Shown here piece by piece: positions 1,305-24,518 of a DNA stretch of 26,051 nucleotides; the stretch's first letter is position 1, and every line of letters starts with the position of its first letter. A model generated the notes under the pieces. It had not been told where the DNA came from. It saw only the letters and a list, made by a program, of their open reading frames with translations, and did no database searches. The translations under genes and the position numbers were made by a program. The stretch is taken from positions 1 to 26,051 of IMG/VR virus record IMGVR_UViG_3300015186_000011; one strand, written 5' to 3'. The DNA comes from a virus. Lineage: Duplodnaviria; Heunggongvirae; Uroviricota; Caudoviricetes.

Positions 1305-1324
1305 TACTGTATAAACATACAGTT
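1305..1324. promoter_or_regulatory. LexA (SOS) box TACTGTATAAACATACAGTT
   Basis: Perfect CTGT-N8-ACAG with an AT-rich spacer (CTGT 1307-1310, ACAG 1319-1322), matching the E. coli LexA consensus TACTGTATATATATACAGTA. It lies about 20 bp upstream of the RBS of the 1344 gene and overlaps a TATAAA -10-like hexamer at 1310-1315. Confidence 0.65.
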
Positions 1325-1601: not shown

Positions 1602-1741
1602 GGTTTGCAATTACCAAGCGGAGTGCTTATATTTACCTTTGCGGTAAATTTACATCGCACTCCTCTTGTGCCATAGTAATCGAGCACTGGCAAAATCCAG
1701 TGCCGGGATTGGTCTCCCGGATTACTACAGAGGCACATATG

Positions 1742-1760
1742 CCGCATAAGCGGTTTTTTT
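1742..1760 (+). terminator. Weak putative intrinsic terminator (short CCGC/GCGG stem followed by T7 run)
   Basis: ccgcataagcggttttttt. The stem is only 4 bp, so this is low confidence. Confidence 0.3.
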
Positions 1761-1914
1761 ATGTGTAAAGCGCACCTATTCTATGGTGGGCTGTGTGGGG
1801 GCACCGAAAGGTGCGCCGGGTTCCTTTGTAGCCGGTAAGACCAACTCTGCACAGTTCACCACCATCTGATTGGTCTCAGCGGTGGTGATTAACCTAACTA
1901 CAAAGGTGATCGCC

Positions 1915-2607
1915 ATGAATACCAAACCTTCCATCTTTTCCTTTGAGTCATCCTGCCAGATCCGTATGTTCATGATTGACGGAGAACCTTGGTTTGTCAC
2001 CAAAGATGTGTGCAATGCTTTGAATATTGATGTTACACAAGCGAGAAAACTTGATAAAAAAGGCTGGAACAAAAAGGGGCTGTATTCAATACAGACCCCT
2101 GGTGGAATACAAGAACTATCCATCGTTTCAGAATCAGGTCTCTACATCCTTATTCTGCGTTGCAAAGAGGCAATGACTGAGGGAACGAGAGCATTCAGAT
2201 TTCTTGAATGGGTTACAGGTGAGGTTCTTCCTCAGATCCGCCGCACCGGAAGTTACATTAAAAACTCGCTCCCGCAGGAAGAACGCATAAAGATGGTTGC
2301 CGACCAGGTAGCCAACGCCACGGCGTCAGCAGTGATGCAGGCGATGAAGATAGAGAACAAAACCTACAGTGCCCCACTGAAGCCCGGCTACCGCAGCCTG
2401 ATTCATTCGCCGTCTGGTGTTCTCGGCCTGACGGAGAACTCACTGCTGATGAATTTGCTGAACAAGTTACAGGAAGACGGGCACGATGTATCGGGCGCGG
2501 CAGCGGAGCTGACCACCATGTTCTGCTACATCGTCGGTGTGAGCAAATGCCTGCGTGATATCCAGACGCACGCGGAGTACATCAATGACAAGGCAGGGTT
2601 CTTCTGA
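1915..2607 (+). CDS. Phage antirepressor with BRO-N N-terminal domain and the shared antirepressor C-terminal domain
   Basis: ATG at 1915 preceded by AAGGTGA. N-terminus MNTKPSIFSFES..QIRMFMIDGEPWFVTKDVCNAL is a typical BRO-N signature. The C-terminal ~80 aa are near-identical to the C-terminus of the 3858..4802 product. Confidence 0.75.
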   Translation: MNTKPSIFSFESSCQIRMFMIDGEPWFVTKDVCNALNIDVTQARKLDKKGWNKKGLYSIQTPGGIQELSIVSESGLYILILRCKEAMTEGTRAFRFLEWVTGEVLPQIRRTGSYIKNSLPQEERIKMVADQVANATASAVMQAMKIENKTYSAPLKPGYRSLIHSPSGVLGLTENSLLMNLLNKLQEDGHDVSGAAAELTTMFCYIVGVSKCLRDIQTHAEYINDKAGFF

Positions 2608-2631
2608 CGGGCGGCGGCACATGGATGTGCC
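2373..2631. repeat. Left arm of a ~260-bp inverted repeat (partner 3834..4092), ~95% identical at DNA level
   Basis: Reverse complement of 3834-4092 matches 2373-2631 with only a few mismatches. The match spans the antirepressor C-terminal domain coding sequence and ~24 bp beyond the stop codons (cgggcggcggcaca[t/g]ggatgtgc). Confidence 0.7.
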
Positions 2632-2728
2632 TACAATTATCAATAATTGTTTACACTCGTTGCAGTTAAAAGCATTATACTCATGTTTAAAATTACCCGA
2701 TTGGTAAAGTCGATTGGTTGAGGTTCAT

Positions 2729-3055
2729 ATGAGCAGAAGATATGTCAAGGAGCTGGCTATAGAGTCTGGCACCCCTTTGGGTATCGTTCCTGGCTCCAAC
2801 TATGCCAAGGCTTTAAACCGAGACTCTGTCGTCAAAGTTATATCAAGAGACATGAATATGGTCGGAGACGATCTCAGACGGTCAGAAAATCGTGTTTATG
2901 CTGAATATATAGTAAAGAACGGAAAAAAAATTGCAGCGCCTGCTGGCGGAAAATGGGCAATAGTGACAGGGAAAAACTCAAATGCAAGAGGAAAACCAGA
3001 AGCTAAAGGAATGTCCTTCGACAAATATGCAAAAATCTATTGGGCAACCAAGTGA
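2729..3055 (+). CDS. Hypothetical protein (108 aa), first gene of a plus-strand cassette
   Basis: ATG at 2729 with GAGGT 5 nt upstream. Product MSRRYVKELAIESGTPLGIVPGSNYAKALNRD... has no family I can place. A CAATTATCAATAATTG inverted repeat lies upstream at 2634-2649. Confidence 0.45.
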   Translation: MSRRYVKELAIESGTPLGIVPGSNYAKALNRDSVVKVISRDMNMVGDDLRRSENRVYAEYIVKNGKKIAAPAGGKWAIVTGKNSNARGKPEAKGMSFDKYAKIYWATK

Positions 3056-3530
3056 TAACGAAGAAACTGAGTTCGAGGAAGTTGAGGAAGGGCTAAGTAA
3101 CGAGATCATTCAACACCCAGATGCCTTCACAAGAGTTCTTGATCGCCCTGAAATTCAGGAGATAGTTGTCGCTCACCATGCGTTTCAGGGTCCGCTTCCT
3201 CCCCCCTATCTGCTTCGCGGGTATCAGGATATTTTACCTGATGCCCCCGAACGCATCTTCCAGCTGACGGAGAAGGAGTTTGCTCACCGCCAGAAAATGG
3301 AGGAAAAGGCACTTGACGGGGCTATTAATAGAGATAAACGTGGGCAGTGGTTTGGCCTGAGTGCAACTATTTTTACAGTAGCTTGTGCAACATTATTAGG
3401 TTTAACAGGTCATGAAGTTCTAGCTGGCACAGTGATCGGTACAGTTGTTGCAGTGGCTGGTATTTTTGTTCTCAGACAAAAACCGAGCTTAAAGAAGAAC
3501 GCTGAAGATAAAACACCAGAAGAAGAGTAA
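2982..3530 (+). CDS. DUF2335-like predicted membrane protein (acidic N-terminal region, two C-terminal TM helices)
   Basis: Motif GPLPPPYLLRGYQDILPDAPERIFQLTEKEFAHRQKMEEKALDGAINRDKRGQWFG followed by hydrophobic segments matches my recollection of DUF2335. Start is ambiguous (ATG at 2982 or 3027); both overlap the upstream ORF in another frame. Confidence 0.55.
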   Translation: MQEENQKLKECPSTNMQKSIGQPSDNEETEFEEVEEGLSNEIIQHPDAFTRVLDRPEIQEIVVAHHAFQGPLPPPYLLRGYQDILPDAPERIFQLTEKEFAHRQKMEEKALDGAINRDKRGQWFGLSATIFTVACATLLGLTGHEVLAGTVIGTVVAVAGIFVLRQKPSLKKNAEDKTPEEE

Positions 3531-3553
3531 GCCCGCGACGCGGGCTTTTTTGT
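3531..3553 (+). terminator. Rho-independent terminator
   Basis: GCCCG-cgacg-CGGGC stem-loop followed by TTTTTTGT, immediately after the stop of the DUF2335-like gene. Confidence 0.7.
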
Positions 3554-3623
3554 GGGCGAAACAAAAGTCAGTGCTACACTCATTGACGCCACATTGAGGT
3601 GGTTTATAGATGGAAATTTCACA

Positions 3624-3785
3624 ATGAAAAAAGCATTTGCTGCACTGTTCGTTTTGTTGTCTCTGGTAGCTTCAACTCAGGCCTTTGCCGGTCGTTGTCA
3701 GCACGACAGCGACACTGCTGCTGACGGCTCCCGCTGCGGTGGGCGTTCTGCGGATTCCCGCCCGGGCGGCGGTGGCATTCGTTAA
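3624..3785 (+). CDS. Small putative secreted peptide (53 aa) with N-terminal signal peptide
   Basis: MKKAFAALFVLLSLVASTQAFA has signal-peptide character with an AxA cleavage motif. The mature part is Gly/Arg/Asp-rich with 2 Cys. RBS is weak and the gene is short, so confidence is low. Confidence 0.4.
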   Translation: MKKAFAALFVLLSLVASTQAFAGRCQHDSDTAADGSRCGGRSADSRPGGGGIR

Positions 3786-3807
3786 AAACAAGGCCGCGAA
3801 AGCGGCC

Positions 3808-3821
3808 TGTGACATGTCACG
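3808..3821. promoter_or_regulatory. Copy 1 of the 14-bp palindromic motif CGTGACATGTCACA (read on the minus strand), between convergent genes
   Basis: Perfect 12-bp palindrome GTGACATGTCAC at 3809-3820, just after a GGCCGC-GAAA-GCGGCC hairpin (3792-3807). The identical 14-mer recurs at 22254-22267 and 24519-24532. Confidence 0.6.
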
Positions 3822-3833
3822 ATAGTTTCGTTT

Positions 3834-4092
3834 TGCACATCCCTGTGCCGCCGCCCGTCAGAAGAACCCTGCCTTGTCGTTGATGTACTCCGCGTGCGTC
3901 TGGATATCACGCAGGCATTTGCTCACACCAACGATGTAACAGAACATGGTGGTCAGCTCCGCCGCCGCGCCCGATACATCGTGCCCGTCTTCCTGTAACT
4001 GGTTCAGCAGATTCATCAGCAGTGAGTTCTCCGTCAGACCGAGAACACCAGACGGAGAATGAATCAGACTGCGGTAGCCGGGCTTCAATGGA
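3834..4092. repeat. Right arm of the ~260-bp inverted repeat (partner 2373..2631)
   Basis: See left arm; covers the 3' end of the minus-strand antirepressor gene plus ~24 bp downstream. Confidence 0.7.
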
Positions 4093-4802
4093 TAACCATA
4101 ACATTTTGTCTGTGTTTTAATTGCCTCACGAAGCGCATCTAACATCTTGACTGCCACTTCATCATTCTCTGATGCAGATCCAGCAGGGAGATACTCCCCT
4201 TCAAGCGGAACCCGAGCAACAAGAGACAACGCTTCGGCAAATTGATCTTCACCAATTTCTTTGTACGAACAGCCAAAATGAGATTTCAGTGACGACCACA
4301 TGGTGATCATCGCCTTAGCCTGTTTTTCTTTTGGCAGAGACTGACCGCGACTCATGACGAGTTGTTTAATGGCTTCCTGCTGTTCAGTTGTTATTTTACC
4401 CGGCAACGCCTTTTTAGCTTTGCGTGGGTTAACCACATGGCCTTTAGTCCAGTACTCGTAGAGCACATCGTCACACTCTTCCTGATACTGGATTACCTTG
4501 TCGCGGATTTCAGGGCGGACTTTGTTAGGGCTGATGGTTTGCAGCCAACCTGCAAGTTTGCGTAAAGCAAGACAGATAACCAGACGACGCTGAGTATCAC
4601 CGGGGAGCTGAATGGTCATTTCGACCATGCAGCTCTTAAAGCGTTGTTGCAACTTGCGGAACTGCGTTTTCCAGTCCAGCCCCATACCTTCAACGACTGG
4701 TTTCATTGGGGTGTATGGTTCGCCGTTATGATTGACAACATAAAGCTCTGCGCCGTGGAATGGCACGTTGATAGTAGATACCGCTGTTGCTATACTCGTC
4801 AT
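3858..4802 (-). CDS. ant: P22 Ant-like antirepressor (AntA / P22_AR_N-type N-terminal domain plus shared C-terminal domain)
   Basis: 314-aa ORF with AGGAA RBS. N-terminus ...GAELYVVNHNGEPYTPMKPVVEGMGLDWKTQFRKL is antirepressor N-domain-like. It sits immediately downstream of an Arc-like gene, as in P22 immI. Confidence 0.75.
   Translation of the reverse strand: MTSIATAVSTINVPFHGAELYVVNHNGEPYTPMKPVVEGMGLDWKTQFRKLQQRFKSCMVEMTIQLPGDTQRRLVICLALRKLAGWLQTISPNKVRPEIRDKVIQYQEECDDVLYEYWTKGHVVNPRKAKKALPGKITTEQQEAIKQLVMSRGQSLPKEKQAKAMITMWSSLKSHFGCSYKEIGEDQFAEALSLVARVPLEGEYLPAGSASENDEVAVKMLDALREAIKTQTKCYGYPLKPGYRSLIHSPSGVLGLTENSLLMNLLNQLQEDGHDVSGAAAELTTMFCYIVGVSKCLRDIQTHAEYINDKAGFF
4768..4796 (+). promoter_or_regulatory. 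Sigma70-like promoter (TTGATA-17 bp-TATACT) firing antisense across the ant translation start
   Basis: -35 TTGATA 4768-4773, 17-bp spacer, -10 TATACT 4791-4796. Predicted start near 4803, directly opposite the ant start codon (4800-4802) and RBS. Confidence 0.5.
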
Positions 4803-4877
4803 GTCGTTAATTCCTATACGTAGTTTTACGATACTGAAGCCCTGACGGTCTGGCCACCGTGGGGCTTCGCTGTTTTA
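4803..4877 (+). ncRNA. sar: Candidate sar-like antisense small RNA (~75 nt) complementary to the ant ribosome-binding region
   Basis: A promoter at 4768-4796 and an intrinsic terminator on the same strand (nested hairpin GAAGCCC..ACGGT-ctggcc-ACCGT..GGGCTTC at 4836-4868, then GCTGTTTTAT) bracket a ~75-nt transcript in the arc-ant intercistronic region. This mirrors the sar antisense RNA of P22 immI. Confidence 0.45.
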
Positions 4878-5077: not shown

Positions 5078-5125
5078 ATTGTCACACCGTGCGTCATTGA
5101 TGTCAAGCACACGGTGAGGCATACT
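5078..5125. promoter_or_regulatory. Divergent overlapping promoters: Pant-like (minus strand) and Pmnt-like (plus strand)
   Basis: Minus strand: -35 TTGACA (plus coordinates 5101-5106), 17 bp, extended -10 TGtGACAAT (5078-5083). Plus strand: -35 TTGATG 5097-5102, 17 bp, -10 CATACT 5120-5125. Inverted CACCGTG / CACGGTG half-sites at 5085-5091 and 5110-5116. Confidence 0.5.
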
Positions 5126-5162
5126 TCAATCATTGCAAGTAACTCAATATTTGGTGAAGAAC

Positions 5163-5594
5163 ATGAGCAGAGAAGATCCACAACTAAGGATCAGACTTCC
5201 CGTTGAAGTAAAAGAAAAAATAGAAATTTCTGCAAAAGCCAATAAGCGATCAATGAACGCTGAAATAGTACAACGTCTTGACACCAGCTTTCTGAAAGAT
5301 ATTCATGAAGATGACGTAATTTCTGCTTATGAAGCAAAAATTATTGCAAACAATGCACGACATGAAATATCAAATATTATTTTCAAAAGAACCTTTAATG
5401 AAATTAATAAGAAAATAACACTTGGACATACAAGTTTTTATATAAACCTTAATGACCTTGAACTGGAATCACTTGCAGATAATGATTACCAGATCATCTT
5501 TGAAAAAACATTTAATAAGCTCAATGAACTAGGTTACATCATCTGTGAAAACTCATGGGATGCAGATGGTTTTGGAATTGAAATACCTGAATAG
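5163..5594 (+). CDS. mnt: Mnt-like ribbon-helix-helix repressor with an AT-rich C-terminal extension (143 aa)
   Basis: ATG at 5163 (track ORF starts at a TTG at 5133). N-terminus MSREDPQLRIRLPVEVKEKIEISAKANKRSMNAEIVQRL closely resembles P22 Mnt (MARDDPHFNFRMPMEVREKLKFRAEANGRSMNSELLQIV). The C-terminal ~95 aa have no match I recognise and the DNA turns markedly AT-rich. Confidence 0.7.
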   Translation: MSREDPQLRIRLPVEVKEKIEISAKANKRSMNAEIVQRLDTSFLKDIHEDDVISAYEAKIIANNARHEISNIIFKRTFNEINKKITLGHTSFYINLNDLELESLADNDYQIIFEKTFNKLNELGYIICENSWDADGFGIEIPE

Positions 5595-5607
5595 GAAGAA
5601 CAAAAGG

Positions 5608-5630
5608 CGTGTACATATTACACGTCTTTA
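5608..5630 (+). terminator. Hairpin CGTGTA-catat-TACACG followed by a T-rich tract; putative terminator or operator
   Basis: 6-bp inverted repeat with TCTTTAAT downstream, between the Mnt-like gene and the membrane-protein gene. Confidence 0.3.
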
Positions 5631-5684
5631 ATACAATTGAAAAACGCCACATTACTGATGTATGTTACAACAAGGAGCGATATT

Positions 5685-6248
5685 TTGAAAACCATATCTA
5701 TATTAAAGGTTGCATTAGGCGTCGCTATTATTTTGACTCTCTCAATATTGTTTTATTTTTACCACAAAAAAACTGCTATTGCTCTTGATGGTCACGCGGC
5801 AAACTCATTTTTCTCAGAGTACATAGTGCCGCTATCAGGAAGCGGTATAACAAATAAATATACTGACTATGACATCAAATATGGAATTGATGATGGGGAG
5901 ACTATTGTATTACATGTAATCATTAAAAACCTAATGACAGTAAATAAAAATACAGACTTCAACGATAAAAATACAATACATCACAACAACAGCAAAACAT
6001 TAATTTCTTATAGTAGCAACATCTATACGGATAAATACCTAAAATACATATCAGAAGATACAATAAAAGAAACCCGCGAAAAGTTAAAAAACATATATTG
6101 TGCATCCGGCAGTTTTCACAAATTATCGCCGCAAGAGCGTTTATTCTACGAAGCAAGAAAACAACGTAAGTCAATAATATTACATTATTATGCTGATTCA
6201 GGGGAGTCACTCATATTTAATATTGGGGTTTCCCCTGAATCATGCTAA
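5685..6248 (+). CDS. AT-rich moron: membrane-anchored protein of unknown function (~188 aa), candidate superinfection-exclusion or abortive-infection factor
   Basis: TTG start at 5685 with AGGAG 8 nt upstream (alternatives: ATG 5658, track TTG 5637). N-terminal hydrophobic helix ISILKVALGVAIILTLSILFYFY, then an Asn/Lys/Tyr-rich domain. GC content is far below the flanking phage genes. Confidence 0.5.
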   Translation: MKTISILKVALGVAIILTLSILFYFYHKKTAIALDGHAANSFFSEYIVPLSGSGITNKYTDYDIKYGIDDGETIVLHVIIKNLMTVNKNTDFNDKNTIHHNNSKTLISYSSNIYTDKYLKYISEDTIKETREKLKNIYCASGSFHKLSPQERLFYEARKQRKSIILHYYADSGESLIFNIGVSPESC

Positions 6249-6259
6249 AGGTGTTTAAC

Positions 6260-21598: not shown

Positions 21599-21675
21599 GT
21601 GGCATTAGCTCAGTTGGACAGAGCAACCGCCTTCTAAGCGGTTGGTCGCAGGTTCGAATCCTGCATGCCACGCCA
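21599..21675 (+). tRNA. tRNA-Arg, anticodon UCU (reads AGA), with encoded CCA
   Basis: Cloverleaf read by hand: acceptor GTGGCAT/ATGCCAC, D-arm GCTC..GAGC, anticodon stem ACCGC/GCGGT with loop CTTCTAA (anticodon TCT), T-arm GCAGG-TTCGAAT-CCTGC, discriminator G and CCA. Acceptor stem differs from host argU as I recall it, consistent with a phage-borne copy. Confidence 0.8.
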
Positions 21676-22340: not shown

Positions 22341-23816
22341 TTAAGCATAGGGATCGTAATCTGTAATGGCCTTGCCTTGCTGGTTCTGCTGCCCGGGAAT
22401 TCGCAGACGCTTAGACACAGGGAACGCAAACGTCAGCAGTAGCGCATCGCCTTTACCCGGCGAACGCCCAAGCCGCTCCTTGATATCTTCCTTCGGTTCG
22501 ATAACGATTTTACCGTCCACTCGAACTTTGTACTCTGCCGCCGACAGGTCGTCCGCTGTTTCCTGGTCATCCAGCATGCCGCCCAGCCTCAGCCATGTCT
22601 TGCATGAGTTGAACATCTCCCCACGCTTGTTGAGCATCTGCGGGTCAGTAGACGCGCCACCGAACGGAACAAGTTGCCATGTGCGCCCCCAACCGTCACC
22701 GATTGACTTCAGCCCGGTACCGTAACCGAAGTCGATGAACACCGCGTCAGCCTGATACTGGTCTTCAAAGTCAGCGATACGCTTTGCCATAATCAGATCG
22801 TCAGTGGTCTTGTTGCCGGTCCACAGCACCTTACTGTGCAGCCCCTGCCGCAGATATATCACCGCGTCATCAACACCGGAGTATGCCGGGTCAACGCCGA
22901 TTATCACCGGAGCATGTGCAACCTGCGCAGCGGTGACCACCCGTTTCATTGCCTCGTCAGTAAGTCCGGTAGGGATAAACTGCAATTCAGATGCATCCGG
23001 GAATATGCCGCGCACACGGATTTTAACGAAGTCGCTATCTTCCCCGTAGTCATCAACCCATTTCTGCAACTGCTGTTTGTTAGTGCCTTCCACCGTCCGG
23101 CTGTCAATCTGCGCAGTTTTCCAGCGGTGTTTATATTTGCGGAAACATTCGCGGAAACGTCCGGTATTACGCGTCGGGTTTCCGAACGCCACCCAGATAA
23201 TCTCAGTGTCTTCGTCCGTTAGCGCACCCTCGGCAACTTCCCACACCAGATCCGCAATGTTCGACGCTTCATCGAATACCACAATGATGCGTTTGCGCTC
23301 GTTGTGTAGTCCGGCGAATGCCTCAGTGTTGTGCTCAGACCAGGGGATTGCGTCAGCTCGCCACCGCTTGTCGTGTCCAGGATCATTGCTGTACATCGCG
23401 GTAGCGGTACAGGTAAACCAGTCTTTCGTGATAGCAAGGTTCGACCACTTGATAATTTCCGGCCAGGTCTTCGTTCGTAGCTGGTTGTCGGTGTTGGCGG
23501 TCACCACAACCTTACAATCCTCGCAAGTGGACATGCCCCAGTTGATCAGCATTGAGATGAATGCGGATTTACCAATACCGTGACCAGAAGCACGTGCCAG
23601 CATAAGCGGCTGATATCGCGTCTCTGGATTCTGCAGGTGATCACGTATCTCTCGGAACGCATCAGCCTGCCATTGACGTGGGCCGGTAGCATGTGCCAGT
23701 TCAGTCCCCTCTTCCCCCCACGGGAACGCATAGAGGGCATAGCCAAGCGGATCGTGAGTGAACCCTGCAATATCCTCGATCAACTGCTCTTCAGGAGATA
23801 ACGCTGTATCTGTCAC
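22341..23816 (-). CDS. Terminase large subunit (491 aa)
   Basis: Size and order (after the small subunit, before portal); N-terminal ATPase-like region and C-terminal nuclease-like region with conserved acidic residues (VVFDEASN, IIGVDPAYSG). Confidence 0.8.
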   Translation of the reverse strand: MTDTALSPEEQLIEDIAGFTHDPLGYALYAFPWGEEGTELAHATGPRQWQADAFREIRDHLQNPETRYQPLMLARASGHGIGKSAFISMLINWGMSTCEDCKVVVTANTDNQLRTKTWPEIIKWSNLAITKDWFTCTATAMYSNDPGHDKRWRADAIPWSEHNTEAFAGLHNERKRIIVVFDEASNIADLVWEVAEGALTDEDTEIIWVAFGNPTRNTGRFRECFRKYKHRWKTAQIDSRTVEGTNKQQLQKWVDDYGEDSDFVKIRVRGIFPDASELQFIPTGLTDEAMKRVVTAAQVAHAPVIIGVDPAYSGVDDAVIYLRQGLHSKVLWTGNKTTDDLIMAKRIADFEDQYQADAVFIDFGYGTGLKSIGDGWGRTWQLVPFGGASTDPQMLNKRGEMFNSCKTWLRLGGMLDDQETADDLSAAEYKVRVDGKIVIEPKEDIKERLGRSPGKGDALLLTFAFPVSKRLRIPGQQNQQGKAITDYDPYA

Positions 23817-24409
23817 TGATTACCATCCTGACGTTCTTTGAGTCGCTTCCTGGCTGCCGCTATGCGATCAGCAATTGTCACATTCACATTAACATCCAGG
23901 CGTTCTTTGAATGCGTTGACGTCGACGTGCTTACCAATCAGTTCGAGGTTCTTCACCTTGTCAGGCCATTTAATTTTTTTGAGGATTGTCTCTATCGAAT
24001 CCTCGTTCATGTTCATGATGGTCGATGACAGATCAAAGCCACTAAGCGTAGTGCGCCAGATTTTCGGCCACTCGCGGATTGGCTTAAGGCTCCCATCGTC
24101 GTTGAGGATATCAATCACGTCCATCTGGTCGATCTCCACCAGGCGCATGAGAACGTAATCGGCACTGACGCGCATTCGTTTGTTGCGCTCCTCCATCAAC
24201 TCGGCAATCCGTTTTTGAATGCGTTCATCGCGCATCATGACACTGGCTTTAACTGCCGCTGTATTTGGGGAGAATCCTGCGTTAATCGCTGCCTGAGTCT
24301 GGTTTTCAGGCGTTTTGATGTATGACTGGCAATAAGCCTCCTGCATTGCGGTTAGTGGCTTAAATTGCGTTGATTTGCGTTTATAGGTTTTAGGTTCAGC
24401 AGGCATCAT
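23813..24409 (-). CDS. Terminase small subunit (~198 aa, Terminase_2-like)
   Basis: Probable start is the ATG pair MMPAEP.. at 24409 with a GGTGG RBS (track ORF extends to 24487). AINAGFSPNTAAVKASVMMRDERIQKRIAEL resembles the small-terminase HTH region. Stop overlaps the large subunit start. Confidence 0.7.
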   Translation of the reverse strand: MMPAEPKTYKRKSTQFKPLTAMQEAYCQSYIKTPENQTQAAINAGFSPNTAAVKASVMMRDERIQKRIAELMEERNKRMRVSADYVLMRLVEIDQMDVIDILNDDGSLKPIREWPKIWRTTLSGFDLSSTIMNMNEDSIETILKKIKWPDKVKNLELIGKHVDVNAFKERLDVNVNVTIADRIAAARKRLKERQDGNQ

Positions 24410-24451
24410 AACCACCCTGGTAATTGTTACCGTTGTGGTAATAGTACCATG

Positions 24452-24478
24452 CAAAATAAAGCCGCCATAGTTGGCGGC
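24452..24478 (-). terminator. Rho-independent terminator upstream of the terminase genes (tR'-like position)
   Basis: Minus strand GCCGCCA-acta-TGGCGGC followed by TTTATTTTG, between the 115-aa zinc-ribbon gene and the small terminase gene. Confidence 0.65.
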
Positions 24479-24518
24479 AGTATTCAAAACCCATCAAATT
24501 CATCATGCATAATCTACT

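What the first reader, a model, noticed from the sequence alone, without database searches (positions are those of the whole stretch)
2729..3785. Accessory cassette of three unknown genes between the antirepressor genes
The cassette is transcribed opposite to the surrounding phage genes and is delimited by the inverted repeat and terminators. It encodes a 108-aa soluble protein, a DUF2335-like two-TM membrane protein with an acidic N-terminal domain, and (after a strong terminator) a 53-aa signal-peptide-bearing peptide. The first two ORFs overlap out of frame, so the start of the second is uncertain. It has the layout of a moron and none of the products has an assigned function, which makes it a candidate accessory function such as superinfection exclusion, defence or anti-defence.
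Basis: inference. Interest (0 to 1): 0.6.

Follow-up and report, generated by a model that had tools for sequence, protein, structure and literature searches.

The report
Mobile two-gene DUF2335 phage cargo
The region holds a swappable two-gene unit (a small basic protein plus a DUF2335 inner-membrane protein) that recurs as a pair in many temperate phages, followed by a separate gene for a small secreted peptide; nobody has tested what the pair does, but it looks like an accessory membrane-acting system, not a core phage gene.

Summary
The three ORFs, the out-of-frame overlap, the 292-nt inverted repeat and the terminators are all real. But this is not one three-gene cassette.

ORF1 (2729-3055) and ORF2 (2982-3530, DUF2335) form a self-contained unit of about 0.9 kb: promoter, 15-bp palindrome, two overlapping genes, terminator. 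It is one of at least five alternative cargos in a swap hotspot of TL-2011b/epsilon15-like E. coli prophages. ORF3 (3624-3785) is a separate unit that stays in place whatever the cargo.

New here: ORF1 belongs to an unannotated partner family that gene callers usually miss. A homologue lies directly upstream of, and overlapping, almost every DUF2335 gene examined (92 of 103 sources). These sit in podo-, myo- and lambdoid prophages, phage-plasmids and an Avs8 defence island. Partner charge and DUF2335 N-terminal charge are anticorrelated (r = -0.68), which suggests a complex.

No homology was found to any known toxin-antitoxin, defence, Rex or Sie family.

The promoter carries the palindrome that marks nearly every promoter of this phage family, including the repressor/cro region. 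The unit is therefore probably silent in the lysogen, which weakens the lysogen-expressed defence reading.

My best guess, inferred only, is a two-component membrane system used in phage conflict. Function is untested.

The parts
2339..2630 (+). Left arm of the 292-nt inverted repeat. It is the C-terminal domain of the BRO-N antirepressor plus 23 nt, and forms the left border of the cargo slot.
   Evidence: 91% complementary to 3835-4126; homology to relatives with other cargo ends at 2630-2655.
2650..2678 (+). Sigma-70-like promoter of the ORF1-ORF2 unit (TTTACA, 17 nt, CATTAT).
   Evidence: 9 of 12 matches. The same promoter is conserved upstream of the module in the Enterobacter island L009. 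This is a consensus match only; no transcript data are available.
2693..2707 (.). 15-bp palindrome TTACC-CGATT-GGTAA between the -10 and the Shine-Dalgarno sequence. It is an operator-like site shared with most promoters of epsilon15/phiV10-like phages.
   Evidence: 6 sites in the window against 0.39 expected; 14 sites in phiV10; 11 exact sites in EC.W1-9 against 0.035 expected; invariant half-sites upstream of the module in all enterobacterial contexts.
2729..3055 (+). ORF1: a 108-aa basic soluble protein, a member of an unannotated DUF2335-partner family. It has a conserved N-terminal core, a variable middle and a conserved C-terminal FDKYAKLYWATK.
   Evidence: phrog_10654. No Pfam, NCBIfam or PADLOC hit. 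The AF2 model is poor (pLDDT 45).
2982..3530 (+). ORF2: a 182-aa DUF2335 protein with an acidic N-terminal region, a conserved GPLPPP..Y..HR..ME..RGQ segment and a C-terminal two-helix membrane hairpin. It overlaps ORF1 by 74 nt in the +1 frame.
3529..3547 (+). Intrinsic terminator of the ORF1-ORF2 unit. It is also the right recombination border shared by all alternative cargos.
   Evidence: dG -13.9; homology with TL-2011b, L103, L104 and L105 resumes at 3527-3530.
3583..3611 (+). Possible promoter of ORF3 (TTGACG, 16-17 nt, TATAGA/ATAGAT), with the palindrome CCAC-N6-GTGG (3589-3602) in the spacer. No TTACC-N5-GGTAA site is present.
   Evidence: Read from the sequence. A similar TTGATG plus GCCACA..TGTGGC arrangement lies upstream of the Rahnella homologue. 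The scan did not detect it, so the evidence is weak.
3624..3785 (+). ORF3: a 53-aa precursor of a secreted 31-aa peptide with two Cys (GxCQHxxDTAxDGSRCGGRSxDSRPGG conserved). It is a separate, conserved transcription unit.
   Evidence: (phrog_14503). It is present without ORF1-ORF2 in about 460 E. coli genomes and in TL-2011b.
3791..3808 (-). Hairpin terminator with its T-run on the - strand, at the end of the P22-type ant gene. On the + strand the hairpin follows ORF3.
   Evidence: Annotated as a terminator in phiV10.
3835..4126 (-). Right arm of the inverted repeat. It is the C-terminal domain of the P22_AR_N antirepressor.

Best explanation
Window 2632-3547 is a self-contained, horizontally mobile bicistronic module. 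It consists of a promoter, a 15-bp palindromic operator-like site, a small basic cytoplasmic protein (ORF1), a DUF2335 inner-membrane protein (ORF2) whose start overlaps the end of ORF1 in the +1 frame, and a terminator. It occupies a cargo-swap hotspot beside the antirepressor genes of a TL-2011b/epsilon15-like prophage.

Shown:
- The pair is conserved as a pair across very different temperate phages.
- The module is mobile and dispensable.
- It has no detectable relation to any characterised family.

Inferred:
- ORF1 binds the oppositely charged cytoplasmic N-terminal region of ORF2, and translational coupling sets their ratio.
- ORF2 oligomerises through its small-residue-rich second membrane helix and acts on the inner membrane.
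- The small partner holds ORF2 in check or triggers it. The pair would then work like a toxin-antitoxin or Rex-type two-component membrane system used in phage-phage or phage-host conflict (exclusion, abortive infection or addiction).
- Because the promoter carries the phage family's operator-like palindrome, the module is probably off in the stable lysogen and comes on with the early genes at induction or infection.

ORF3 is a separate unit that encodes a secreted disulfide peptide of unknown role.
For: Pair conservation:
- An ORF1 homologue lies directly upstream, on the same strand and overlapping the DUF2335 start, in Salmonella, Klebsiella, Enterobacter, Rahnella, phage-plasmid and metagenomic loci.
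- With an iterated HMM it is found in 92 of 103 sources. The misses are loci without DUF2335, genes cut at contig ends, and five divergent cases.
- The frame offset is the same in nearly all loci, with overlaps of 4-80 nt.
- Two further partner representatives (P0051, P0053) proved adjacent to DUF2335 when looked up, and the loci show the same for others (P0049 is the L012 partner, P0050 the L015 partner).

Complex:
- Partner net charge and DUF2335 N-terminal net charge are anticorrelated (r = -0.68, n = 20 clusters, permutation p about 0.0009). The signs are swapped in L085, L088 and L089.
- ORF1 evolves faster than ORF2 (45-51% against about 80% identity).
- ORF1 is poorly ordered in AF2.

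Mobility and accessory status:
- Flanking genes are heterogeneous: Bro-N, terminases, Rep3/ParA, Q antiterminator, baseplate, HicA, Abi_2.
- The slot holds five alternative cargos, including a YafO_toxin pair.
- Deletion variants exist.

Conflict context:
- In Enterobacter the module directly follows Avs8A/PD-lambda-4_A (1781 bits) and an Abi_2-like gene, and precedes an IS3 element.

Membrane effector:
- Two hydrophobic helices. The second reads GTVIGTVVA, a GxxxGxxxA pattern.
- AF2 predicts a long juxtamembrane helix running into the first membrane helix.

Regulation. In phage ZX5, repressor overexpression abolishes lytic transcripts (PMC9782041).
Against: - There is no experimental datum on toxicity, membrane effect, interaction or phage exclusion.
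- No homology was found to any toxin, antitoxin, Abi, Rex or Sie family.
- Both structure models are of low confidence and the fold searches were empty.
- If the module is repressed in the lysogen, it cannot protect the lysogen as a classical prophage defence would.
- In several gut-phage loci the pair sits co-directionally just upstream of the terminase genes. That could equally indicate a role in the phage's own lytic programme.
- The charge correlation is not corrected for phylogeny. Part of each protein is encoded by shared nucleotides, although in the window the acidity lies outside the overlap.
- Defence-island adjacency rests on one lineage.
Confidence: 0.4

Rival explanations
1. Lytic-cycle helper or host-takeover function. 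The pair is an early, repressor-controlled gene set that modifies the host inner membrane for the phage's own benefit. Examples would be control of lysis timing, inhibition of cell division as P1 icd does next to ant, or exclusion of secondary infection during lytic growth.
For: - The operator-like palindrome at the promoter is the same as at the other early and late promoters of this phage family.
- The module lies beside the antirepressor control regions, with C4, isrK and sar RNAs on either side.
- In several divergent phages the pair sits directly upstream of, and co-directional with, the terminase genes.
- Lysogens of ZX5 show no phenotype (PMC9782041).
Against: - The module is dispensable. 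Near-identical phages lack it or carry unrelated cargo in the same slot.
- It has no fixed position in phage genomes.
- It also occurs outside prophages, next to Avs8A and an IS element.
Confidence: 0.22
2. Superinfection exclusion at the DNA-entry step. ORF2 sits in the inner membrane and blocks genome injection of related podoviruses, as P22 SieA or T4 Imm do, with ORF1 as an assembly or regulatory factor.
For: - ORF2 is an inner-membrane protein.
- It lies in the region between the tail fibre and injection-protein genes that corresponds to the position of sieA next to mnt-arc-ant in P22.
- PHROGs files the family under the moron/host takeover category.
Against: - No similarity to SieA was found (BLASTP E = 1.0; hhalign probability 1.4%).
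- By the positive-inside distribution of charges, almost the whole protein is cytoplasmic and only a loop of about 4-8 residues faces the periplasm.
- Known Sie proteins do not need a cytoplasmic partner.
- Repression in the lysogen would defeat the purpose.
Confidence: 0.13
3. Regulatory device. ORF1 is a nucleic-acid-binding protein that recognises the TTACC-N5-GGTAA palindrome, giving autoregulation and possibly interference with the phage repressor network. ORF2 sequesters ORF1 at the membrane through its acidic, DNA-mimicking N-terminal region.
For: - The palindrome travels with the module as the only copy within 9-16 kb in unrelated backbones. The half-sites are invariant while the flanks diverge.
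- ORF1 is strongly basic and the ORF2 N-terminus strongly acidic, with compensating changes across the family.
- The module lies among antirepressor genes.
Against: - ORF1 has no recognisable DNA-binding fold or motif and no similarity to the phage repressor or cro-like protein.
- Divergent modules (L015, L020, L050 and Firmicute phages) lack the palindrome but keep the pair.
- The palindrome's distribution in phiV10 and EC.W1-9 is explained more simply by the CI-like repressor.
Confidence: 0.1
4. Toxin-antitoxin addiction module in the strict sense. ORF2 is a membrane toxin, and ORF1 is a labile antitoxin that also autoregulates. Its role would be to stabilise the mobile element.
For: - The architecture fits: a small, faster-evolving, poorly ordered upstream gene overlapping a larger downstream gene.
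- The same slot holds a YafO_toxin pair in TL-2011b.
- In phage-plasmids the pair lies between the replication initiator and parA.
- HicA toxins occur among the neighbours.
Against: - No family-level match was found to any toxin or antitoxin.
- The promoter palindrome is phage-wide and not private to the module.
- Variants with a frameshifted ORF1 exist in public assemblies, though they may be sequencing errors.
Confidence: 0.1

Closest known systems
Lambda RexA/RexB (two-component abortive-infection system of a prophage)
   Same: Both are two adjacent phage genes encoding a soluble component and an inner-membrane component. Both sit next to the immunity and regulatory genes of a temperate phage, and both are dispensable for the phage.
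   Different: No sequence relation was found (hhalign probability 1.3% and 0.2%). RexB has four membrane helices, ORF2 has two. rexAB is co-transcribed with cI in the lysogen, whereas this module's promoter carries an operator-like site that predicts repression. Gene order and sizes differ, and here the two genes overlap by 74 nt.
Type II toxin-antitoxin cassettes, such as the YafO-family pair that occupies the same slot in phage TL-2011b
   Same: Both are compact two-gene operons with a small upstream gene overlapping a larger downstream one. Both have an own promoter with a palindrome and are interchangeable cargo at the same locus, bounded by the same left flank and terminator.
   Different: ORF2 is a membrane protein with no toxin-family match, and ORF1 has no antitoxin DNA-binding domain. 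The overlap is unusually long. The palindrome is shared with the whole phage genome.
P22 SieA and the immI region (mnt-arc-sar-ant)
   Same: The genomic neighbourhood matches. This window has an arc-like gene, a sar RNA and a P22_AR_N ant right next to the cassette, and membrane-protein genes nearby.
   Different: ORF2 is unrelated to SieA and is almost wholly cytoplasmic apart from the membrane hairpin.
Morons of lambdoid phages (HK97/lambda type: promoter, gene and terminator inserted between backbone genes)
   Same: The unit is autonomous with its own promoter and terminator. It is present or absent between close relatives, and it is inserted downstream of Q, beside tail genes or in the baseplate cluster in other phages.
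   Different: G+C content does not deviate from the backbone. Expression in the lysogen is doubtful because of the operator-like palindrome.
Dispersed repressor operators of phage P1 (C1) or mycobacteriophage L5 (gp71 stoperators); comparison from my own knowledge
   Same: One short site is repeated at many promoters around the genome, including those of accessory genes and the antirepressor operon.
   Different: Here the site is a perfect 5-N5-5 palindrome. Its binder has not been identified experimentally, and the site also accompanies the module outside this phage family.

Membership tests
DUF2335 (Pfam PF10097) | Match to the family HMM above the gathering score | tested here: met
   57.2 bits against a cutoff of 25, E = 1.6e-15, residues 73-122 covering the full 50-position model.
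DUF2335 (Pfam PF10097) | Predicted membrane protein (hydrophobic helices after the conserved segment) | tested here: met
   Two segments have Kyte-Doolittle 19-residue means above 1.5, at about 123-141 and 143-166. AF2 predicts helices 88-141 and 145-165.
Moron (autonomous accessory transcription unit in a phage backbone) | Own promoter and own terminator | tested here: inconclusive
   The terminator is clear. The promoter is only a 9-of-12 consensus match, although it is conserved with the module in another genus. No transcript data are available.
Moron (autonomous accessory transcription unit in a phage backbone) | Present in some and absent from other closely related phages | tested here: met
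   TL-2011b is 99.7% identical to the right of 3530 but carries different cargo. phiV10 lacks it. Five cargo types were found.
Moron (autonomous accessory transcription unit in a phage backbone) | Expressed from the repressed prophage | not testable with these tools
   The operator-like palindrome at +8 to +22 argues against it. RNA-seq of a lysogen is needed.
Moron (autonomous accessory transcription unit in a phage backbone) | Base composition different from the backbone | tested here: not met
   G+C is 0.43-0.48 across 2700-3600 against 0.45-0.55 in the flanks.
Type II toxin-antitoxin system | Two small co-directional genes in one operon, antitoxin usually first | tested here: met
   Architecture only.
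Type II toxin-antitoxin system | Homology of either product to a known toxin or antitoxin family | tested here: not met
   No hit in Pfam, NCBIfam or PADLOC. No PDB relative was found by profile search.
Type II toxin-antitoxin system | Toxicity of one product, neutralised by the other | not testable with these tools
   Requires expression experiments.
Lambda RexAB-type abortive infection | Sequence or profile similarity to RexA or RexB | tested here: not met
   hhalign probabilities of 1.3% (ORF2 family against RexB) and 0.2% (ORF1 family against RexA).
P22 SieA superinfection exclusion | Sequence or profile similarity to SieA | tested here: not met
   BLASTP E = 1.0 and hhalign probability 1.4%.
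Catalogued anti-phage defence systems (PADLOC-DB v2.0.0) | HMM match of any component | tested here: not met
   ORF1, ORF2 and ORF3 give no significant hit. The best is an MTase_II match at E = 0.034 for ORF2. The Enterobacter copies also give none.
Avs8 / PD-lambda-4 (two-gene operon Avs8A + Avs8B) | Being the second gene (Avs8B) of the system | tested here: inconclusive
   In Enterobacter the module directly follows Avs8A, but neither protein matches any PD-Lambda-4 model. I did not confirm that the library contains a B-component model, and I could not fetch the published Avs8B accession to compare. Avs8B is reported as dispensable and without known homology (bioRxiv 10.1101/2025.07.02.662641). 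On this evidence I treat it as adjacency, not membership.

The most novel reading that the evidence does not exclude
The partner-plus-DUF2335 pair is a widespread, so far unrecognised family of phage-borne two-component membrane systems. It would be a new class of exclusion, abortive-infection or anti-defence module, present in temperate phages of Proteobacteria, Firmicutes, Actinobacteria and Spirochaetes. Its small component has been overlooked because gene callers discard the overlapping ORF. In the enterobacterial branch it is wired to a 15-bp palindrome that it carries along between unrelated phages.
Probability: 0.3. Interest if true: 0.7.

Novelty: new variant of a known kind. Interest (0 to 1): 0.5.

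Why it matters
DUF2335 proteins are annotated in thousands of genomes with no function, and their obligate small partner is mostly not annotated at all. Three results turn a hypothetical protein into a defined system that can be cloned as a unit of about 0.9 kb and tested:
- The two always come as an overlapping pair.
- Their charges co-vary.
- The pair moves as a unit between phage types and into a defence island.

The locus also defines a cargo-swap hotspot in TL-2011b/epsilon15-like prophages, bounded by the antirepressor gene on the left and a shared terminator on the right. About 10% of complete E. coli genomes carry this backbone region (ORF3 and its flanks). The hotspot holds at least five alternative small cassettes, one of them toxin-antitoxin-like, which makes it a compact place to mine for conflict genes.

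Finally, the dispersed TTACC-N5-GGTAA palindrome gives a testable map of the repressor regulon of this phage family.

Tried and rejected
1. Programmed frameshift fusing ORF1 to ORF2. The frame offset is conserved family-wide and fused proteins exist in public assemblies (P0004). However, the ORF2 frame opens only 15 nt before its ATG in the window. Every locus has an in-frame ATG, often with a Shine-Dalgarno sequence. The fusions and truncations map to homopolymer runs (A8 at 2923-2930, A5 near 2972) in short-read-derived contigs. Rejected in favour of independent, coupled initiation.
2. 'DUF2335 phospholipase' in two T6SS effector papers. In my reading this is a slip for DUF2235 (Tle1). It is not relevant here.
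3. Structure-based annotation. The AF2 models have pLDDT 45 (ORF1) and 60 (ORF2). Foldseek against BFVD and PDB gave only two weak viral matches (E 0.003-0.01; unnamed proteins, not examined) and noise. The afdb50 library was unavailable.
4. The giant protein P0055, hit by the ORF1 profile, is a repeat artefact at 0.2 bits per repeat.
5. The palindrome as an RNA hairpin of the boxB type. The stem is weak (dG -3.1), the loops are not conserved, and at some promoters the site overlaps the -10 or +1, so it could not be fully transcribed. A DNA operator is preferred.
6. The palindrome as a LexA box or MqsA site. The pattern differs. The only good LexA box in the region is at 1307-1322.
7. ORF1 as a relative of the phage repressor or cro: no similarity.
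8. The module as the Avs8B component: no PADLOC match.
9. The genome-contig scan returned only 2 loci, so no statistics on bacterial chromosomal context were possible.
10. Inversion of the segment between the 292-nt repeats: no inverted arrangement was seen among the relatives examined. It was not searched for systematically.
Full report
**What is there**

The window is a TL-2011b/epsilon15-like (Uetakevirus-type) E. coli prophage or phage. The structural operon runs leftward from 6260. Terminase genes lie near 22341-24487. From 3530 onward the DNA is 99.7% identical to phage TL-2011b.

The finding's coordinates hold three real ORFs on the + strand:
- ORF1 is at 2729-3055. It encodes 108 aa, has pI 10.0 and has no hydrophobic segment.
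- ORF2 is at 2982-3530 and encodes 182 aa. Its Pfam DUF2335 score is 57.2 bits against a cutoff of 25. It has an acidic N-terminus and two C-terminal hydrophobic helices.
- ORF3 is at 3624-3785 and encodes 53 aa. It has a signal sequence ending AFA|G and a 31-aa mature peptide with two Cys.

ORF1 and ORF2 overlap by 74 nt, with ORF2 in the +1 frame. A strong terminator lies at 3529-3547 (dG -13.9) and a second hairpin at 3791-3808. The 292-nt inverted repeat (2339-2630 and 3835-4126, 91%) is the shared C-terminal domain of the two antirepressor genes, BRO-N type at 1912-2607 (+) and P22_AR_N type at 3858-4802 (-).

The cassette is co-directional with the upstream BRO-N ant gene. And, as shown next, it is not one three-gene unit.

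**Two units, not one**

Relatives that carry other genes in this position share sequence with the window up to 2630-2655 and again from 3527-3530, which is exactly the foot of the terminator hairpin. At least five alternative cargos sit between these borders:
- ORF1+ORF2, found in 68 of 5426 complete E. coli genomes at high identity. A more distant (Enterobacter) copy used as query matches 104 genomes.
- A 59-aa gene plus a YafO_toxin-family gene in TL-2011b (26.3 bits against a cutoff of 25).
- A DUF4760 protein (L103).
- An overlapping 72-aa plus 125-aa pair in ETEC H10407 (L104).
- A 210-aa protein (L105).

ORF3 stays in place in all of them. It is matched in most of the 532 E. coli genomes with any hit, and in Klebsiella phages. 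ORF3 therefore belongs to the backbone, or forms the right border of the hotspot. It has its own possible promoter.

Curiously, an ORF3 homologue also follows the ORF1-ORF2 module directly in a Rahnella lambdoid prophage downstream of Q. One also follows it in Klebsiella phage BUCT711. The linkage therefore recurs, but it is not obligatory.

**The pair is a conserved, mobile module with an overlooked partner gene**

Database searches with ORF1 found almost nothing. There were 7 clusters in 5.8 billion proteins, and 12 representatives in 1.84 billion with a profile. ORF2 homologues, by contrast, occur across Enterobacteriaceae.

Reading the DNA upstream of those ORF2 homologues showed why. An ORF1 homologue is present every time, starting 259 nt before the DUF2335 start and overlapping it by 77 nt, but gene callers had usually skipped it. 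This was seen in Salmonella, Klebsiella and Enterobacter.

The same holds at greater distance:
- Rahnella and metagenomic loci have a 116-aa partner with a 32-35 nt overlap.
- A phage-plasmid of Enterobacter kobei has a 160-aa partner.
- One locus has a partner of only 60 aa.

A scan of IMG/VR with the DUF2335 alignment returned 80 loci. An HMM of ORF1, iterated on six-frame ORFs, found a partner immediately upstream on the same strand in 92 of 103 sources. The exceptions were:
- two loci with no DUF2335 gene;
- four with the gene at a contig edge;
- five divergent cases.

The frame relation is the same in nearly all loci, with DUF2335 in the +1 frame, and overlaps range from 4 to 80 nt. Two further partner representatives, looked up afterwards, are also followed by an overlapping DUF2335 gene.

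The partner has a conserved core of about 55 aa (AGSVLxIxPxxxY ... DWxxVGxDxxK). In the enterobacterial branch it also has a variable middle and a conserved C-terminal FDKYAKLYWATK. It has no Pfam family and falls only into PHROGs of unknown function.

Within the overlap, the ORF1 frame is the conserved one and the first 25 or so residues of ORF2 drift freely. The ATG at 2982 is nevertheless conserved and carries a Shine-Dalgarno sequence in several homologues, while the ATG at 3027 is not conserved. I therefore take 2982 as the start, as RefSeq does. GenBank's EC.W1-9 record uses the second ATG.

**Accessory, not core**

The two ORFs flanking the module on each side, in 31 DUF2335 clusters, are heterogeneous. 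They include Bro-N, large and small terminases, Rep3/ParA, HicA, the Q antiterminator, Mu-like head genes, tail protein L and Abi_2.

In one E. coli myovirus group the module sits inside the baseplate/tail-fibre cluster, and related phages match only about 82% of that region, perhaps because they lack the module. Deletion variants exist (P0007; H75).

In Enterobacter the module, with 96 nt of its upstream region, follows Avs8A. Avs8A matches PADLOC PD-Lambda-4_A at 1781 bits over its full length. An Abi_2-like gene lies further upstream and an IS3 element follows.

Avs8 is a validated capsid-sensing STAND defence whose second gene, Avs8B, is dispensable (bioRxiv 10.1101/2025.07.02.662641; bioRxiv 10.64898/2026.01.04.697583). 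Neither ORF1 nor ORF2 matches a PD-Lambda-4 model. I did not verify that the library holds an Avs8B model, so I treat this as defence-island adjacency, not membership.

**Evidence for a complex**

Across 20 clusters, the net charge of the partner and the net charge of the DUF2335 region before the GPLPPP motif are anticorrelated. Pearson r is -0.68 with permutation p about 0.0009, and r is -0.71 after thinning close relatives.

Most pairs are basic partner with acidic N-terminus (window: +11 and -11). In three lineages the signs are swapped together. In the window the acidity lies outside the overlap, so shared nucleotides do not explain it.

ORF1 also evolves faster than ORF2 (45-51% against about 80% identity between genera). 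AF2 models ORF1 poorly (pLDDT 45). Both features are common in small regulatory partners, but neither proves anything.

ORF2 is predicted to have cytoplasmic helices and a long helix (88-141) that runs into the first membrane helix. Its second membrane helix reads GTVIGTVVA, a GxxxGxxxA pattern of the kind that packs helices in channel-forming proteins (my own knowledge). Positive charges on both sides of the hairpin place nearly all of the protein in the cytoplasm.

**Regulation**

Upstream of ORF1 lie a TTTACA-17-CATTAT promoter (2650-2678) and the palindrome TTACC-CGATT-GGTAA (2693-2707), followed by GAGGT and the ATG. The half-sites are invariant upstream of every enterobacterial copy of the module, while the spacer and flanks vary.

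The palindrome is not private to the module:
- The window has 6 sites with at most one mismatch, against 0.39 expected.
- phiV10 has 14 such sites.
- EC.W1-9, which carries this cassette, has 11 exact sites against 0.035 expected.

These sites lie between genes, ahead of transcription units. Two lie between the CI-like repressor and the cro-like gene, and two at the start of the leftward early operon. Each alternative cargo whose upstream region showed an exact site carries one (L002, L104, L105; none was found for the DUF4760 cargo in L103).

I infer that this is the operator of the phage's CI-like repressor, arranged as a dispersed network like that of P1 C1. The cargo slot would then be repressed in the lysogen and switched on at induction or infection.

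Published work on phage ZX5 fits this. Its repressor is identical to that of phiV10, and it carries this cassette. Repressor overexpression abolished lysis-gene transcripts, the BRO-N protein acted as an antirepressor, and lysogeny changed no tested host phenotype (PMC9782041).

One observation remains unexplained. The palindrome is also the sole copy within 9-16 kb when the module sits in unrelated backbones: the Avs8A island, a lambdoid prophage and a SEN34-like myovirus. This could reflect recent escape from epsilon15-like phages, or a host-encoded or module-encoded binder. ORF1 shows no similarity to the repressor or cro-like protein.

**What it most likely does**

No search links either protein to a characterised family. 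Searches covered Pfam, NCBIfam, PADLOC, PDB profiles, Foldseek, and direct profile comparisons with RexA, RexB and SieA.

I rest the functional guess on the following:
- the anatomy, a small partner translationally coupled to a membrane hairpin protein;
- the charge covariation;
- mobility and dispensability;
- toxin-antitoxin-like alternative cargo in the same slot;
- the defence-island copy.

From these I commit, at about 0.4, to a two-component membrane system used in phage conflict, with ORF1 controlling ORF2.

The main rival, at about 0.2, is an early lytic-cycle helper or host-takeover function. The operator and the terminase-proximal position in some phages favour it. Injection-blocking exclusion, a membrane-sequestered regulator and strict toxin-antitoxin addiction are less likely but not excluded.

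ORF3 is a separate secreted peptide with a strongly conserved mature sequence and no assigned function.

**Verdict**

But it is not a single three-gene moron, and its expression in the lysogen is doubtful. The proteins are already in public databases as hypothetical or DUF2335. What is new is the obligate partner family, the module concept, the cargo hotspot and the operator network. I rate it as a new variant of a known kind (phage accessory two-gene cassette), with interest 0.5.

Noticed in passing
window 1307-1322 and 1344-1601: A perfect LexA box (CTGTATAAACATACAG) sits directly upstream of an 85-aa gene. That gene is a free-standing copy of the C-terminal domain shared by both antirepressors (42% identity over 76 aa). 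The domain therefore occurs three times within 3 kb, and the small copy looks like an SOS-controlled antirepressor.
   Followed up: partly
window 1684-1760, 1779-1866 and 4804-4871: Rfam finds isrK (74.7 bits) and C4 antisense RNA (78.6 bits) in the long leader of the BRO-N ant gene. It also finds sar RNA (44.8 bits) opposite the leader of the P22-type ant gene. Two different immI-style RNA control systems therefore flank the cassette.
   Followed up: no
window 1253, 1633, 2693, 21262, 24409, 24427; phiV10 (L106) and EC.W1-9 (L107) genome-wide: The 15-bp palindrome TTACC-N5-GGTAA marks most promoters of this phage family, including the repressor/cro intergenic region. EC.W1-9 has 11 exact copies against 0.035 expected. 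It is probably the repressor operator of a dispersed regulon.
   Followed up: yes
L009 4707; L012 4339; L057 7594: The same palindrome accompanies the ORF1-DUF2335 module as the only copy within 9-16 kb in non-epsilon15 backbones: an Avs8A island, a lambdoid prophage and a SEN34-like myovirus. This is unexplained.
   Followed up: partly
window 5100-6250: A low-GC block (0.30-0.36) holds an Arc-domain 143-aa protein (5163-5594) and a 203-aa protein with an N-terminal membrane helix (5637-6248; phrog_8033). The latter has a weak TIR/ThsB-like PADLOC hit (E = 0.006) and no similarity to P22 SieA. This is another candidate accessory unit.
   Followed up: partly
L009-L011 668-4519 (Enterobacter): A full-length Avs8A/PD-lambda-4_A homologue (1781 bits) lies directly upstream of the module. 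An Abi_2/PD-T4-5-like gene lies before it and an IS3 element after the module.
   Followed up: partly
window 2923-2930 (A8 run in ORF1): Public short-read assemblies contain frameshifted, truncated or ORF1-ORF2 fused versions (P0004-P0006) that map to homopolymer runs. They are probably sequencing errors and not programmed slippage.
   Followed up: partly
L002 4303-5002; L103 2465-3004; L104 2417-3003; L105 2649-3281: The alternative cargos of the same slot are a 59-aa plus YafO_toxin pair, a DUF4760 protein, an overlapping 72-aa plus 125-aa pair, and a 210-aa protein. An exact TTACC-N5-GGTAA palindrome lies upstream of the cargo in L002, L104 and L105 (none was found for L103), and none of the cargos is in PADLOC.
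   Followed up: partly
window 21599-21675: A tRNA-Arg (anticodon TCT) gene lies among the head and packaging genes.
   Followed up: no
window 3589-3602; L013 about 5600: The possible ORF3 promoter has a palindrome in its spacer (CCAC-N6-GTGG here, GCCACA-TT-TGTGGC in the Rahnella homologue). This hints at separate regulation of the secreted peptide.
   Followed up: no
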